From the NCBI GenBank assembly GCA_964016885.1, contig CAXHJY010001277.1, forward strand, positions 1 to 45,614: a stretch of DNA of 45,614 nucleotides, read 5' to 3'. Made by a program: the position numbers and the translations under genes. The notes below the pieces were generated by a model. It saw only the letters and a program-made list of their open reading frames with translations. It was not told where the DNA came from and searched no databases. Below are positions 1,694-42,070 of the stretch, in pieces. Within the stretch, counting starts at the first letter, position 1. Each line of letters starts with the position of its first letter. This stretch comes from Eledone cirrhosa. Taxonomy: Eukaryota.

Positions 1694-2420
<727 letters not shown>

Positions 2421-2488
2421 AAAAAGAGATGAAATCGAAAATGCAACTGAGGTCTTATTTTAAAAAAAATATATATATTTATTTGGTT

Positions 2489-2526
2489 CCTTTACCGGTT
2501 TCGCAGTTCTTCTGCTTTTCAAAAGG
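2489..2526 (-). ncRNA. Minimal type-I hammerhead ribozyme (U3:A8 variant), mirror copy
   Basis: Exact reverse complement of 2597-2634. Confidence 0.7.
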
Positions 2527-2596
2527 TGAGTTGAGATGGAGGGTCTGTGGTTTTTCTCACATCTGAGAAAAACCACAGACCCTCCATCTCAACTCA

Positions 2597-2634
2597 CCTT
2601 TTGAAAAGCAGAAGAACTGCGAAACCGGTAAAGG
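2597..2634 (+). ncRNA. Minimal type-I hammerhead ribozyme (U3:A8 variant)
   Basis: CCTT-TTGAAAA-GCAG-aagaa-CTGC-GAAA-CCGG-TA-AAGG: helix I CCTT/AAGG, helix II GCAG/CTGC, palindromic helix III ACCGGT, GUA cleavage triplet. Confidence 0.72.
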
Positions 2635-2704
2635 AACCAAATAAATATATATATATTTTTTTTAAAATAAGACTTCAGTTGCATTTTCGATTTCATCTCT
2701 TTTT

Positions 2705-3176
<472 letters not shown>

Positions 3177-3603
3177 ATACAATACCCACCAGTCAACACT
3201 ATCTGCGTAATCTCTACTCTATATTACAAGGACCAATTGATGCGTTGTTTGTTTTTAAGAATTCATATAGGGAAATTTTTGTATTTCAGAAATACTGAAA
3301 ACTAAAAATTCTCAAGTTCCCTTCAAATAAATCACCTCCCTACTGGGAAAAAAAACATTGAAGCTGAACTGAAAGAATCCTGTAAAGAGAAACAAACAAT
3401 GAAATAACTAGATGCATGTATTTCGAATGTTTCTGGATCTGTAAAGGTTTATAACTGGGCCAGGGCAATGTCTATCAACGCGATGAATCAATAGTTAAGA
3501 CAATAGTTAACACCGGTATAAATAAAAACAAACAACATATCAATTGGTCCTTGGAATATCGAGTAGAGATAAGGTAGATAGAGTTGACTGGTGGATATTG
3601 TAT
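3177..3603. repeat. Inverted repeat, 81-bp arms
   Basis: 3177-3257 versus the reverse complement of 3523-3603, about 9 mismatches by manual alignment; 265-bp spacer. Confidence 0.85.
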
Positions 3604-3645
3604 GTGGTACCTCAGCATACCACTAGCTATAATGACTAAAACATA

Positions 3646-15173: not shown

Positions 15174-15374
15174 AATAAAAGCAAAAACAAAAACCATAAC
15201 CTACATAAAAATAACCACTACCACAGTCACCAACAGTCTTCTAAACAGGAAACTTCTTCCTCTTTTTTAGCCATAATGAATCTGGCAAAAGAACTGGAAA
15301 AAAACATTCGAGCTATCACCCAGCACCACCCTCCACTATCACCCCACTGCACAAACTCCCATTGCTGCCATTAA
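15174..15374 (+). CDS. Probable C-terminal remnant of LINE ORF1
   Basis: Open frame [12 protein letters not shown]...[27 protein letters not shown]...HCCH* directly upstream of and overlapping ORF2; truncated 5' by microsatellite; no homology test possible. Confidence 0.5.
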
Positions 15375-18300
15375 CAAACAAACAAATTAACAACACACCA
15401 AAACAATTAAAACCATCCACTCTCGCCTCTACATTTTTGCTTAACGCCCAAGGCATCAGCCCTTCCACCAATACTCAAAAATGGAAGATCAAATTCCTGG
15501 AGGACTGGATTGATGTCCATCCAAACCACATCCCTTTCTTCGTCCTCACTGAAACCCATCTCAGTAACCTCCACTTGGAAGCCGAGGTGAAAGTGAAAAA
15601 TTTCAAAGCCATCCGTGCTGATCGCGCTGGCAGAAGAAAGGGCGGAACTGCCATTTATGTCCATAATTCTTTCTCAACAGAGGCTATGAACATATTCACT
15701 AATGGATACTGTGAGGCAGTCACTGTATTCAGTCAAACCAACAACCTATTAGTAGTTGGGCTCTATAGGCCACCCCAAACGCCTGTACCATGCTTCAAGG
15801 AATGCCTCAACAGCATAAAGTGTTTCATCCAAGAGTGTCACCCTGACAACATCTTAATGATGGGGGACTTCAACCTCCCCGGAGTTGACTGGTCCACAAA
15901 CACCCTGCCACCAGGTTCTTCTGCCTCAACCTCTGACAGGGAAGCTGTGGAATCGCTTCTTGACTTCATGGATGATTTCTTCCTATCCCAACTAGTGCTC
16001 GAACCAACGAGGTGCCACAAAAACGTCCTAGACTTAATTTTCAGCAATCACACTGACAATATCCACAATATTGCAGTGGAGAAAACTCTACTCTCTGATC
16101 ATGACATGGTTCTCTGTGATCTGAGATTCCACCGTCCAATATATAAACCCAATGTCATTTCTCCTGTCCATCCGTTTGACGCTATGGATTTCCACAATGC
16201 AAACTGGGAAGCGATCAGTCATGATCTTGCACATGTCGACTGGTCCTTCACGCACACTCATACACCCACTAACATCAAAAAGTCCTGGCAGACATTTGTG
16301 GACACTGTTACAAACATATGTGCTAAACACACCCCATTAAGAACTATAAACAAATCTAAGAGCAGAATCCCTAGAAATAGAAAAACGCTCATCAGAAAAA
16401 TTAAGAGAACGAACAAAAAAATCAACAAGCTGAAATACTGTCAGCAGCAACACATCAACTTGACTGCCATTTCATCACTAGAGATTAAAAAACATAACCT
16501 CCAAAACAACATAATGTCCCTCATCAACAATCAGAGAAGAGCTGAAGAGGCCTGGGCCATTGAGAAGATCAAACTCAATCCCAAAGTGTTCTTTTCATTT
16601 GCAAAAAAACACAAAATCACTGGCTCTACTGTTGGCCCTCTAATTGATGAAAATGGCACTCTTCAAGACAATGCTAAAACCATGGGTGAGATACTGCAGA
16701 AACAATACTGCTCTGTTTTCAGCAATCCTGATATGGCCGATCTGGGCTGTATCGGCGATGTTACTCCCCATTACACCTTATCGGACATAACGTTTGGCGC
16801 CCCTGATGTCTTGGCGGCAATAAAGGAAATCAAGCATAATTCAGCAGTAGGTCCCGATAGGTTCCCTGCTTGTGTCTTGAAGGCGTGTCAACACCAACTT
16901 GCTTCTCCTCTTGCCAATCTGTGGCGGAACTCACTGGATGCTGGATATGTGCCAGAAAACCTTCTATCCCAGTCTGTTGTCCCAGTTTTCAAAAAGGGAA
17001 ACAAATCCCTTGCCGTGAATTACCGTCCAATCTCACTCACCTCTCATATCATTAAGGTATTTGAGCGAGTGGTGAGATCGCGAATGACCCACTTCCTTGA
17101 GAGTAACAATATGCTGAACTCCAACCAGCATGGATTCCGTAATGGAAGGGATTGCCTGACGCAACTACTGCATCACTTTGATGACATTTTGAGAGCCTTG
17201 GGAGAGGGTTCCAACACTGATGTTATCTACCTTGATTTCAGCAAGGCCTTTGACAGGGTTGATCATAACATTCTACTGAGAAAGCTGTCCAATATTGGTG
17301 TCACTGGAAAGCTGCTGCAGTGGATCAAGAGCTTCCTGTCAAACAGAACCCAACATGTTGTAGTTGAGGGAGTCAAATCAAGCCCAGCCAAAGTCAGTAG
17401 TGGAGTCCCACAAGGCACTGTGTTGGGCCCACTTCTCTTCATCATCTATATTAATGACATCACTGACATCATCAAACACAGCAACATTAAAATTTTCGCT
17501 GATGATTCCAAGCTCCAAAAGGTCATCAATGGCGTGGATGACCGGATAAGCCTTCAGTCAGACCTACTGGCTGTTACCCAATGGGCAGAAAAGAACAACA
17601 TGTTACTGAACGAAGACAAATTCGAACTGATCCACTTTGGAAAAGAGGATGCTCTGAAACTCCCGTACTCCCTTCCCTCCGGGGAAACTCTCGTGGCATC
17701 TAACAACATCAGAGACTTGGGAGTAACCGTGGACAGCAACATAAGCTGGACCACGCATATAAGCAGCAAAGTTGACATGGCCCGCAGAATGTGTTCCTGG
17801 ATCCTCAGAACCTTCCAGTCGAGAGATTCCCGTACCATTATCCTTCTCTTCTCTACTTTCGCCCGACCACACCTTGAATACTGTTGTCCACTGTGGTCTC
17901 CCCACACGAAACAAAGTATCATGAAACTTGAAGCTCCTCAAAGGGCAATCACGAAAAAGATAGATGGCATGTCAGACCTTGACTACTGGGGTCGATTGGA
18001 AAACCTGAAACTTTACTCACTCCAACGTCGCCGTGAGCGTTATATTATCTGCATGATGTGGAAAATGTTCCATCATCACTGCCCAAATGATGTTGGCATC
18101 GCCTTCAAGATACACCCAAGGCTTGGGCCCCGTGCTATCCGTCCCATTCAAAAATCTAAATCGCAACTCATAACAACAATACGGCACAATTATTTCACCT
18201 CAATCGGCCCTGCTCTCTTCAACATCACACCAGGACACGTCAAAACAGAAACTGACCACACAAAATTCAAGAAGTCTTTGGACAAATTCCTCCAAGTAAT

Positions 18301-18382
18301 CCCGGACAAACCACCCACACCCGGATATGTCTCCGCAAACAGTAATTCTCTTCTCGAATGGGCCATGGTGCCCAAATCCTGA
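15362..18382 (+). CDS. LINE ORF2: apurinic-like endonuclease plus reverse transcriptase (CR1 clade)
   Basis: EN motifs LNAQG, LTETHL, GGTAIYV, YRPP, GDFN, LDL, SDH; RT motifs YRPISLTS, QHGF, YLDFSKAFDRVDH, GVPQGTVLGP, FADD, RDLGV; CR1-type RPHLEYC..WSP and SLQRRR. The frame is open from 15245 and the listed start codon is TTG, not ATG. Confidence 0.97.
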   Translation: MLPLTNKQINNTPKQLKPSTLASTFLLNAQGISPSTNTQKWKIKFLEDWIDVHPNHIPFFVLTETHLSNLHLEAEVKVKNFKAIRADRAGRRKGGTAIYVHNSFSTEAMNIFTNGYCEAVTVFSQTNNLLVVGLYRPPQTPVPCFKECLNSIKCFIQECHPDNILMMGDFNLPGVDWSTNTLPPGSSASTSDREAVESLLDFMDDFFLSQLVLEPTRCHKNVLDLIFSNHTDNIHNIAVEKTLLSDHDMVLCDLRFHRPIYKPNVISPVHPFDAMDFHNANWEAISHDLAHVDWSFTHTHTPTNIKKSWQTFVDTVTNICAKHTPLRTINKSKSRIPRNRKTLIRKIKRTNKKINKLKYCQQQHINLTAISSLEIKKHNLQNNIMSLINNQRRAEEAWAIEKIKLNPKVFFSFAKKHKITGSTVGPLIDENGTLQDNAKTMGEILQKQYCSVFSNPDMADLGCIGDVTPHYTLSDITFGAPDVLAAIKEIKHNSAVGPDRFPACVLKACQHQLASPLANLWRNSLDAGYVPENLLSQSVVPVFKKGNKSLAVNYRPISLTSHIIKVFERVVRSRMTHFLESNNMLNSNQHGFRNGRDCLTQLLHHFDDILRALGEGSNTDVIYLDFSKAFDRVDHNILLRKLSNIGVTGKLLQWIKSFLSNRTQHVVVEGVKSSPAKVSSGVPQGTVLGPLLFIIYINDITDIIKHSNIKIFADDSKLQKVINGVDDRISLQSDLLAVTQWAEKNNMLLNEDKFELIHFGKEDALKLPYSLPSGETLVASNNIRDLGVTVDSNISWTTHISSKVDMARRMCSWILRTFQSRDSRTIILLFSTFARPHLEYCCPLWSPHTKQSIMKLEAPQRAITKKIDGMSDLDYWGRLENLKLYSLQRRRERYIICMMWKMFHHHCPNDVGIAFKIHPRLGPRAIRPIQKSKSQLITTIRHNYFTSIGPALFNITPGHVKTETDHTKFKKSLDKFLQVIPDKPPTPGYVSANSNSLLEWAMVPKS

Positions 18383-18767
18383 ATTGAAAGACTTCGCCAG
18401 GTGGTGCTATTAAGTTAGACATGGCCTGGGCCAATACTGGCCAAAACATTTCAAAGTTATTCAAAGTTATATAAATTAGAAATTATAAGCTTTCACCGTA
18501 TTTTAGACTAAAGAAATTTCTAGCCTGATAGTGGGGTTTATAACCCTCGGAGAAATGGAAAAAGATGAGTGTTGCCGTACATGTAGAGCAAACATCACGG
18601 GCGCTCTATCTCAAAATTATTTTTGAAAAGCATTAGAAATGCGCAACCGGTAAAAGTTTAAAACCAAAACTGAATACTAACCAATACTATTACTAATTTT
18701 TGCTTATTCCTAATTAAACTATTTTTCACTGGGAACAATTTGTCAGCATTTTCTCTTCCGTTTACCA

Positions 18768-18799
<32 letters not shown>

Positions 18800-39914: not shown

Positions 39915-40184
39915 TGTATGTATATATATATGTATGTATATATATATGTATGTATATATATATGTATGTATATATATATGTATGTATATATATATGTATG
40001 TATATATATATGTATGTATATATATATGTATGTATATATATATGTATGTATATATATATGTATGTATATATATATGTATGTATATATATATGTATGTATA
40101 TATATATGTATGTATATATATATGTATGTATATATATATGTATGTATATATGTATGTATGTATATATATATGTATGTATATATA
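38072..40184. repeat. (TA)nTGTATG array, about 2.1 kb
   Basis: Direct reading. Confidence 0.98.
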
Positions 40185-42070
40185 TAACTTTGAATAACTT
40201 TGAAATGTTTTGGCCAGTATTGGCCCAGGCCATGTCTAACTTAATAGCACCACCTGGCGAAGTCTTTCAATTCAGGATTTGGGCACCATGGCCCATTCGA
40301 GAAGAGAATTACTGTTTGCGGAGACATATCCGGGTGTGGGTGGTTTGTCCGGGATTACTTGGAGGAATTTGTCCAAAGACTTCTTGAATTTTGTGTGGTC
40401 AGTTTCTGTTTTGACGTGTCCTGGTGTGATGTTGAAGAGAGCAGGGCCGATTGAGGTGAAATAATTGTGCCGTATTGTTGTTATGAGTTGCGATTTAGAT
40501 TTTTGAATGGGACGGATAGCACGGGGCCCAAGCCTTGGGTGTATCTTGAAGGCGATGCCAACATCATTTGGGCAGTGATGATGGAACATTTTCCACATCA
40601 TGCAGATAATATAACGCTCACGGCGACGTTGGAGTGAGTAAAGTTTCAGGTTTTCCAATCGACCCCAGTAGTCAAGGTCTGACATGCCATCTATCTTTTT
40701 CGTGATTGCCCTTTGAGGAGCTTCAAGTTTCATGATACTTTGTTTCGTGTGGGGAGACCACAGTGGACAACAGTATTCAAGGTGTGGTCGGGCGAAAGTA
40801 GAGAAGAGAAGGATAATGGTGCGGGAATCTCTCGACTGGAAGGTTCTGAGGATCCAGGAACACATTCTGCGGGCCATGTCAACTTTGCTGCTTATATGCG
40901 TGGTCCAGCTTATGTTGCTGTCCACGGTTACTCCCAAGTCTCTGATGTTGTTAGATGCCACGAGAGTTTCCCCGGAGGGAAGGGAGTACGGGAGTTTCAG
41001 AGCATCCTCTTTTCCAAAGTGGATCAGTTCGAATTTGTCTTCGTTCAGTAACATGTTGTTCTTTTCTGCCCATTGGGTAACAGCCAGTAGGTCTGACTGA
41101 AGGCTTATCCGGTCATCCACGCCATTGATGACCTTTTGGAGCTTGGAATCATCAGCGAAAATTTTAATGTTGCTGTGTTTGATGATGTCAGTGATGTCAT
41201 TAATATAGATGATGAAGAGAAGTGGGCCCAACACAGTGCCTTGTGGGACTCCACTACTGACTTTGGCTGGGCTTGATTTGACTCCCTCAACTACAACATG
41301 TTGGGTTCTGTTTGACAGGAAGCTCTTGATCCACTGCAGCAGCTTTCCAGTGACACCAATATTGGACAGCTTTCTCAGTAGAATGTTATGATCAACCCTG
41401 TCAAAGGCCTTGCTGAAATCAAGGTAGATAACATCAGTGTTGGAACCCTCTCCCAAGGCTCTCAAAATGTCATCAAAGTGATGCAGTAGTTGCGTCAGGC
41501 AATCCCTTCCATTACGGAATCCATGCTGGTTGGAGTTCAGCATATTGTTACTCTCAAGGAAGTGGGTCATTCGCGATCTCACCACTCGCTCAAATACCTT
41601 AATGATATGAGAGGTGAGTGAGATTGGACGGTAATTCACGGCAAGGGATTTGTTTCCCTTTTTGAAAACTGGACAACAGACTGGGATAGAAGGTTTTCTG
41701 GCACATATCCAGCATCCAGTGAGTTCCGCCACAGATTGGCAAGAGGAGAAGCAAGTTGGTGTTGACACGCCTTCAAGACACAAGCAGGGAACCTATCGGG
41801 ACCTACTGCTGAATTATGCTTGATTTCCTTTATTGCCGCCAAGACATCAGGGGCGCCAAACGTTATGTCCGATAAGGTGTAATGGGGAGTAACATCGCCG
41901 ATACAGCCCAGATCGGCCATATCAGGATTGCTGAAAACAGAGCAGTATTGTTTCTGCAGTATCTCACCCATGGTTTTAGCATTGTCTTGAAGAGTGCCAT
42001 TTTCATCAATTAGAGGGCCAACAGTAGAGCCAGTGATTTTGTGTTTTTTTGCAAATGAAAAGAACACTTT
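40185..42070 (-). mobile_element. CR1-clade LINE copy 2, 5'-truncated (RT only)
   Basis: Corresponds to 16583-18469 of copy 1; differences seen are a 1-bp deletion near 41671 (CCC to CC, frameshift) and a silent change near 40821. Confidence 0.97.

What the first reader, a model, noticed from the sequence alone, without database searches (positions are those of the whole stretch)
2489..2634. Two mirror-image minimal hammerhead ribozymes with a compensatory U3:A8 core
Seen: CCTT TTGAAAA GCAG-aagaa-CTGC GAAA CCGG TA AAGG on + (2597-2634) and its exact reverse complement on - (2489-2526). Established: the hammerhead core CUGANGA has a C3:G8 tertiary pair, and Penelope-like elements carry minimal type-I hammerheads with a palindromic helix III that cleave as dimers. 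Here both positions are changed together (U3:A8), so the pair is kept, and a search for CTGA.GA would miss the motif. Inference: an inverted Penelope pLTR remnant or retrozyme-like element. A read-through transcript would form a long dsRNA hairpin sequestering the ribozyme, whereas transcripts starting near the centre would leave it free to fold.
Basis: partly seen in the sequence, partly recalled or inferred. Interest (0 to 1): 0.85.

Follow-up and report, generated by a model that had tools for sequence, protein, structure and literature searches.

The report
Mirror-image ends of a Penelope retrotransposon
The two mirror-image hammerhead-type motifs are the ends of a young jumping-gene family with over 11,000 copies in this genome, in an arrangement and core variant already described, though the copies likely show how such mirror pairs are made.

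Summary
In detail: a 38-nt minimal type-I hammerhead motif with a U3:A8 core lies at 2597-2634 (+), with its exact mirror at 2489-2526 (-). It is the pLTR motif of a young Penelope-like element (PLE) with at least 11,105 copies; intact copies carry ORF1 plus an RT/GIY-YIG ORF. The window holds two 5'-truncated pLTRs joined head to head in (TA)n. The U3:A8 core, opposite-strand motif pairs and inverted truncated copies are all published for PLEs, so this is a new member of a known kind. The copies add mechanism. 59 of 100 start 23-39 nt upstream of the motif, about 30 nt below a TATA box: likely the RNA 5' end. In 55 close pairs both arms share a haplotype (54) and one is long, one short (51), with no fold-back polarity. 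This favours two primings on sense RNA over the published antisense self-priming idea. The window's arms lack the TATA box, so transcription from the centre is doubtful. Cleavage is untested and no RNA run was listed. A sister family (about 12,500 matches) also changes core A13 to C.

The parts
2597..2634 (+). Minimal type-I hammerhead motif, U3:A8 core, palindromic helix III; predicted cleavage between 2630 and 2631
   Evidence: sequence; 6,009 exact copies; dimer fold
2489..2526 (-). Exact mirror copy of the motif; predicted cleavage between 2493 and 2492
2564..2707 (+). Right arm: 5'-truncated pLTR starting 33 nt upstream of helix I and ending at the inner (short, tail-less) end
   Evidence: 94% identical to the pLTR of intact copy L237
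2418..2565 (-). Left arm: 5'-truncated pLTR reaching 38-39 nt upstream of helix I (inferred RNA 5' end), short end
   Evidence: 96% identical to the L237 pLTR
2564..2565 (.). Two-base microhomology joining the arms head to head; the commonest junction type among the pairs examined
2275..2417 (.). Left (TA)n target with variant units, mirror of the right flank
2708..2848 (.). Right (TA)n target with variant units; 141 nt match to the left flank in inverted orientation
18619..18657 (+). Motif of the sister family B (U3:A8, A13C, compensatory changes in helices I and II) in a single truncated pLTR

Best explanation
The pair is two 5'-truncated pseudo-LTRs of a young Neptune-like Penelope retrotransposon joined head to head in a (TA)n repeat, each carrying a hammerhead-type motif that is predicted to fold only as a dimer, and likely made by two reverse-transcription primings on the element's sense RNA. 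Shown: identity with the pLTR of intact pLTR-ORF1-RT/GIY-YIG-pLTR copies, copy number, the 5' wall, shared haplotypes and the long-plus-short pattern. Inferred (about 0.6): the RT-endonuclease cuts both strands of (TA)n; one end primes at an inner TA-rich site of the pLTR RNA and the other at an outer one about 65 nt further 3'; both cDNAs run to the RNA 5' end and join by 0-2 nt of microhomology. Inferred (about 0.6): the motif is a weak, dimer- or protein-assisted ribozyme in parent transcripts and is not needed for insertion. The window copy is likely a passive by-product: it lacks the TATA box, read-through RNA would bury the motif in a hairpin, and it was probably homogenised or duplicated later, since both arms are short and the flanks mirror each other.
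For: Parent: L032 and L237 (direct pLTRs around ORF1 and a 775-aa ORF2), L031 and L033 (inverted pLTR, ORF, pLTR). Pfam RVT_1 and GIY-YIG; DKG, YLDD and CX4CxxC motifs. 72 of 150 scored RT matches are 100% identical. 59 of 100 copies start 23-39 nt upstream, 37 of them at 36-39, and only 6 at 40-92. TATAAAA lies 30 nt above the A at -38; family B has CATAAAA 32 nt above its equivalent. G precedes that A in 48 of 100 listed joins against 13 of 100 one base lower, a hint of cap copying. Close pairs: haplotype shared in 54 of 55 (permutation mean 18.4), long plus short in 51 of 55. The long arm reaches further in 25, the short in 22, equal in 4; loop-less junctions occur at L044, L083, L092 and in family B at L139, L140. 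Position 3:8 in related PLEs: 15 C:G, 4 U:A, 0 mixed among 19 distinct sense-strand motifs. Dimer -18.9 against two monomers -12.8 kcal/mol. In vitro a PLE protein cuts and extends both strands, starts at two internal sites and does not need ribozyme cleavage (PMC11167929).
Against: No RNA evidence for the start site, expression or cleavage. Shared haplotypes could come from later gene conversion or from one master copy active at a time. 29 of the 55 pairs come from loci chosen for a perfect match to the window's right arm. The T/A-run boundary matches between arms in only 6 of 53 pairs (chance 5.2), which argues against wholesale homogenisation but is itself unexplained. Some G cases have other explanations (target repeat, inverted arm, point mutation), and the control class is dominated by T-ending microhomology. 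The window is an atypical short/short pair on a 45-kb unplaced contig. Family B changes the conserved A13, so catalysis may be dispensable. The motif alone folds no better than shuffles (z -0.94).
Confidence: 0.72

Rival explanations
1. The mirror pair arises by self-priming or fold-back: one cDNA or an antisense transcript turns back on itself and copies the arm, and the endonuclease resolves the hairpin, leaving the tail on one side.
For: Explains shared haplotypes (54 of 55) and near-symmetric junctions with a 4-nt loop as in the window. Proposed for rotifer Penelope elements (PMC3846280, passages); tail by endonuclease resolution is suggested in PMC8557442 (passages).
Against: No link between tail side and the arm that reaches further (25 against 22). 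Loop-less junctions cannot form by intramolecular fold-back. Single, non-inverted copies stop at the same wall below a sense-strand TATA box.
Confidence: 0.25
2. The motif is kept mainly as an RNA dimerisation or protein-binding signal, through its palindromic six-base helix III, and is catalytically weak or dead in this lineage.
For: Family B keeps U3:A8 and the palindrome but has C at 13 in 90 of 100 listed matches and a 3-bp A-U helix I. About 196 copies join within five bases of the cleavage site against at least 11,105 intact. Catalytic mutants do not reduce insertion in vitro.
Against: The 3:8 tertiary pair covaries across lineages, which points to selection on the active fold. U3:A8 ribozymes are reported active in vitro (PMC3088659 section 8). 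The family of this finding has a complete core.
Confidence: 0.25
3. The palindrome is itself a mobile non-autonomous unit (retrozyme- or MITE-like) transcribed from its centre in both directions.
For: Many pairs share the same spacing of about 70 nt. The mirrored flanks of the window and of L002 could be 3' sequence carried along from a short source copy.
Against: Junctions differ from locus to locus and spacing runs from 13 nt to over 4 kb. The TATA box is absent from the arms. There is no tandem array, which the retrozyme definition needs (bioRxiv 10.64898/2026.07.22.740005, part 1).
Confidence: 0.1
4. The window's mirror is an assembly or sequencing artefact.
For: Small unplaced contig with very long TA tracts, a 1,495-nt perfect inverted LINE copy and flanks mirrored almost in register.
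Against: The same junction occurs at many chromosome-scale loci with unrelated flanks. The two arms differ at one base and one TA unit. Short-read contigs of run X1 show the same three element ends (X1 may be the assembly's own sample).
Confidence: 0.07

Closest known systems
Minimal hammerheads in pLTRs of metazoan Penelope-like elements, including the U3-A8 variant of Schistosoma mansoni Cercyon (Cervera and de la Pena 2014, PMC4209133)
   Same: Type-I motif in the pLTR, short helix I, palindromic helix III, U3-A8 core, opposite-strand pairs about 100-700 bp apart, mostly truncated copies.
   Different: Here helix II is 4 bp with no extra base before it, copies are highly uniform rather than heterogeneous, pairs are mostly about 70 nt apart, and a sister family adds A13C.
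Neptune/Nematis clade EN+ PLEs (as described in Craig et al. 2021, PMC8557442)
   Same: C-terminal GIY-YIG, CX2-5CxxC linker, DKG motif, (TA)n targets, inverted 5'-truncated copy, tail at one end, optional frameshifted ORF1.
   Different: The tail is about 65 nt rather than 30-40 (about 40 in family B). Clade placement was not tested by a tree against reference elements.
PAc Poseidon element of Anolis (Frangieh et al. 2024, PMC11167929)
   Same: Two internal RT start sites that define the tail, AT-rich target, ribozyme upstream of the start sites.
   Different: Here both ends fall on TA-rich sites of the 5' leader that match the target, upstream of the ORF1 start; PAc starts inside the ORF at sites not homologous to the target.
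Adineta vaga Penelope elements (Arkhipova et al. 2013, PMC3846280)
   Same: Head-to-head inverted pLTRs with palindromic junctions, tail on one pLTR, TATA plus initiator in the pLTR.
   Different: The authors favoured antisense self-priming and left it open; the counts here favour two sense-strand primings.
Non-LTR retrozymes
   Same: Type-I hammerhead with palindromic helix III, PLE-related.
   Different: Retrozymes are head-to-tail tandem repeats; this is a head-to-head pair with an autonomous parent.

Membership tests
Type-I hammerhead ribozyme | Core C3/U3-U4-G5-A6-N7-G8/A8-A9, G12-A13-A14-A15.1, U16.1-H17 with a paired 3:8 | tested here: met
   U3:A8 is a published natural covariation
Type-I hammerhead ribozyme | Helices I and II form, with compensatory changes among relatives | tested here: met
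   MFE fold shows both helices; family B has C-G to U-A at 2.3-1.3 and G-C to U-A at 10.4-11.4
Type-I hammerhead ribozyme | Helix III forms (monomer or dimer) | tested here: met
   only as a predicted dimer: -18.9 kcal/mol; monomer with helix III +0.7
Type-I hammerhead ribozyme | Match to an Rfam hammerhead model | tested here: not met
   no hammerhead family at E up to 10; minimal PLE motifs needed a custom descriptor in PMC4209133
Type-I hammerhead ribozyme | Site-specific self-cleavage after H17 | not testable with these tools
   genomic proxy (joins at the cleavage site) gave no clear peak
EN+ Penelope-like element | RT with C-terminal GIY-YIG endonuclease linked to the repeat | tested here: met
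EN+ Penelope-like element | pLTRs in direct tandem and inverted 5'-truncated copies | tested here: met
EN+ Penelope-like element | Optional tail at one end | tested here: met
   51 of 55 pairs; absent from both window arms
Neptune clade | CX2-5CxxC linker before GIY-YIG and microsatellite targeting | tested here: met
   CX4CxxC at residue 645 of the L237 ORF2; (TA)n flanks; the linker is shared with Nematis and Naiad
Neptune clade | RT phylogeny with reference Neptune elements | not tested
   no reference sequences held
Non-LTR retrozyme | Head-to-tail tandem units each with a hammerhead, no ORF | tested here: not met
   head-to-head pair; coding parent found

The most novel reading that the evidence does not exclude
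The Penelope hammerhead works as an RNA dimerisation signal, like a retroviral kissing palindrome: its self-complementary helix III holds two sibling RNAs on the dimeric RT-endonuclease so that both ends of the cut (TA)n are primed, which produces the head-to-head pairs. Catalysis is dispensable, as shown by a sister family of about 12,000 copies that changed core A13 to C but kept the palindrome.
Probability: 0.18. Interest if true: 0.75.

Novelty: new member of a known kind. Interest (0 to 1): 0.33.

Why it matters
As a ribozyme variant it is ordinary: U3:A8 cores and inverted pLTR pairs are in print. Its value is as a data set. How Penelope elements make head-to-head repeats and what their hammerheads do are stated as open in the papers read. 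Two very young families with over 11,000 copies each give a predicted RNA start, two priming sites, junction statistics and a natural core mutant (A13C) for direct tests of both questions.

Tried and rejected
Rfam scans found no hammerhead. No RNA holder was listed, so expression, start site and splicing were not tested; the four runs laid are contigs of unknown kind and the low-depth pieces in X4-X6 are not used as evidence. A C3:G8 sister with the same helix III pattern gave 1 match; U3:A8 with an AT-only helix III gave 17 against 23 for the control. Joins at the cleavage site: 196 against 95 in an upstream control window, but the control filter excludes (TA)n targets, so the two-fold difference is not evidence; 27 of 100 listed begin exactly at the site (counted by eye). 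Family B 5' starts were noisier. No TATA spacing pattern was seen in distant PLE loci. In one search I set aside 4 of 28 rows (one long weak U3-G8 hit with a GGAA core listed twice, two minus-strand hits) and merged repeats of the same motif. Earlier findings: none. Lunse et al. on dimer-cleaving PLE hammerheads was not held.

Full report
Observation. The 38-mer occurs 6,009 times in the 3.0-Gb genome against 0 for the reversed control. A 33-nt version that lets positions 3 and 8 vary occurs 11,105 times, and all 100 listed matches are U3:A8. The two motifs are the middle of a larger palindrome: arms 2418-2565 (-) and 2564-2707 (+) inside (TA)n. Rfam gave no hammerhead match.

What it is. Opposite-strand pairs among the first 100 listed copies lie from tens of bases to over 4 kb apart. 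The widely spaced ones enclose coding sequence. L032 and L237 are direct pLTR-ORF1-ORF2-pLTR units; L031 and L033 are inverted pLTR, ORF, pLTR. ORF2 (775 aa stop to stop in intact copies) has Pfam RVT_1 and GIY-YIG matches, DKG and YLDD motifs and a CX4CxxC linker. ORF1 overlaps ORF2 in the -1 frame across a slippery heptamer, also present in the sister family; frameshifting is inferred. The window arms are 94% and 96% identical to the L237 pLTR. The family is very young: 72 of 150 scored RT matches are 100% identical. The nearest named homologue is an Octopus bimaculoides protein, 74% identical over 55% of the query, so the host is probably an octopod (inference).

Is it a hammerhead? All core positions are present and helices I and II fold, but the motif alone is no more stable than shuffles. 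Helix III cannot form in a monomer (+0.7 kcal/mol); the double hammerhead in trans evaluates at -18.9 against -12.8 for two monomers. A sister family B, with one copy at window 18623, gives 12,535 pattern matches (control 1), shares U3:A8 and the helix III palindrome, has compensatory changes in helices I and II, and has C at position 13 in 90 of 100 listed matches; its ORF2 is 56% identical. In 83 related PLE loci from public contigs the same descriptor gave 28 rows against 0-3 per shuffle. After merging repeats and setting aside 4 rows (a weak U3-G8 hit listed twice, two minus-strand hits), 19 distinct sense-strand motifs remain: 15 C3:G8, 4 U3:A8, none mixed. These lineages are related, so this is supporting, not independent, covariation. 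Cleavage could not be tested. A genomic proxy showed no clear pile-up of 5' joins at the cleavage site, and its control was biased.

How the mirror is likely made. Of the 100 copies around the first 100 listed places, 59 begin 23-39 nt upstream of helix I (37 at 36-39), 6 at 40-92, 2 closer, and 33 run 170 nt or more into the 3' UTR (lower bounds). Single copies stop at the same wall. In intact copies a TATAAAA box lies 30 nt above the A at -38, and family B has a similar box 32 nt above its equivalent. G precedes that A in 48 of 100 listed joins against 13 of 100 one base lower (Fisher p 1e-7), though several G cases have other explanations. I infer that the wall is the capped 5' end of the sense RNA. 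At the 3' side copies end at one of two TA-rich sites about 65 nt apart, the published 'tail'. Contigs of run X1 show loose ends at both 3' sites and at the wall.

In 55 close pairs (29 from loci chosen for matching the window's right arm, the window included as one more) both arms share a two-site haplotype in 54 (permutation mean 18.4, maximum 34) and one arm is long and one short in 51. The long arm reaches further 5' in 25, the short in 22, equal in 4 (one locus counted twice). Five junctions have no loop. None of the 7 widely spaced pairs has an arm stopping at the wall. The simplest reading is two primings, one at each start site, on the same pLTR segment of sense RNA (one molecule copied twice or two sibling RNAs), joined by microhomology. 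It fits the in vitro behaviour of an Anolis PLE, which cuts and extends both strands, starts at two internal sites and does not need ribozyme cleavage (PMC11167929, parts 1-2 of 4). Fold-back, gene conversion and one-master-at-a-time remain possible in part.

The window copy is atypical: both arms are short and the flanks mirror each other for 141 nt. L002 is the only other true short/short pair and has 245 bp of mirrored unique flank at 98.8%. Later inverted duplication or carried-along 3' sequence are both possible. Both arms lack the TATA box, so transcription from the centre is doubtful, and read-through RNA would form a -136 kcal/mol hairpin.

Comparison with print. Natural U3:A8 covariation: PMC3088659 (passages and section 8). 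U3-A8 minimal hammerheads and opposite-strand pairs in PLEs, low activity even as dimers: PMC4209133 (parts 1-2 of 4). Inverted truncated copies, tail, (TA)n bias, hammerhead function unclear: PMC8557442 (passages). Head-to-head junction palindromes, TATA plus initiator, antisense self-priming proposed and left open: PMC3846280 (passages). Also seen: PMC2377424 and PMC6765202 (passages), bioRxiv 10.64898/2026.07.22.740005 (part 1 of 5). Searches for this family, for A13C and for a two-priming model listed no paper that states them, but I did not open every listed paper, Lunse et al. (title only) was not held, and no supplements were read; those could hold such variants or this family.

Verdict. 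A real motif and a new member of a known kind. Identity as a PLE pLTR pair about 0.95; two-priming origin about 0.6; weak catalytic activity about 0.6. Interest 0.33, for the mechanistic leverage of the copy statistics and the A13C sister family rather than for the U3:A8 core.

Noticed in passing
window 18580-18770; L131, L133, L134: Sister PLE family B, about 12,500 pattern matches, U3:A8 plus A13C, 3-bp A-U helix I, own ORF1 and RT/GIY-YIG, same head-to-head pairs and tail pattern.
   Followed up: partly
window 2657-2668 and its mirror; all family A arms: A T-run followed by an A-run keeps its total length (98 of 123 arms at one length) while the boundary slides from 3 to 10 T, and it differs between the two arms of 47 of 53 pairs. 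Unexplained; perhaps reverse-transcriptase realignment.
   Followed up: partly
window 2628-2634; L237 5' leader: The cleavage triplet overlaps a possible 5' splice site (GT) in both families, with pyrimidine tracts and AG downstream before ORF1; splicing and cleavage would exclude each other. Read from sequence only; the related U3:A8 motif in L161 lacks the GT.
   Followed up: no
L002:1060-1304 and 1787-2031; window 2275-2848: Both true short/short pairs have inverted duplications of their flanks.
   Followed up: partly
L237:2492-2580 region; L131: Conserved slippery heptamer at the ORF1/ORF2 overlap in both families, suggesting a -1 ribosomal frameshift.
   Followed up: partly
L035, L043, L097 junctions: Junctions with about 5-12 extra bases copied from the element's own 5' end, suggesting repeated template jumps at the RNA end.
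   Followed up: no
window 15245-18382 and 40178-41672: Open 1,045-aa frame resembling a LINE endonuclease-RT, with a 1,495-nt 100% identical inverted partial copy 21.7 kb away.
   Followed up: no
window 3179-3245 and 3535-3604: About 65-nt diverged inverted repeats around 290 nt, flanked by TA repeats; MITE-like.
   Followed up: no
L011, L014, L030, L034, L037, L039, L042, L046-L048: Other hammerhead motif families with C3:G8 cores and different palindromic helix III loops lie near these insertions, some also in inverted pairs.
   Followed up: no
P0012, P0038, P0040, P0061; L232-L234: Related PLE proteins are filed under bacterial symbiont or MAG names, probably host DNA in those assemblies.
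   Followed up: no
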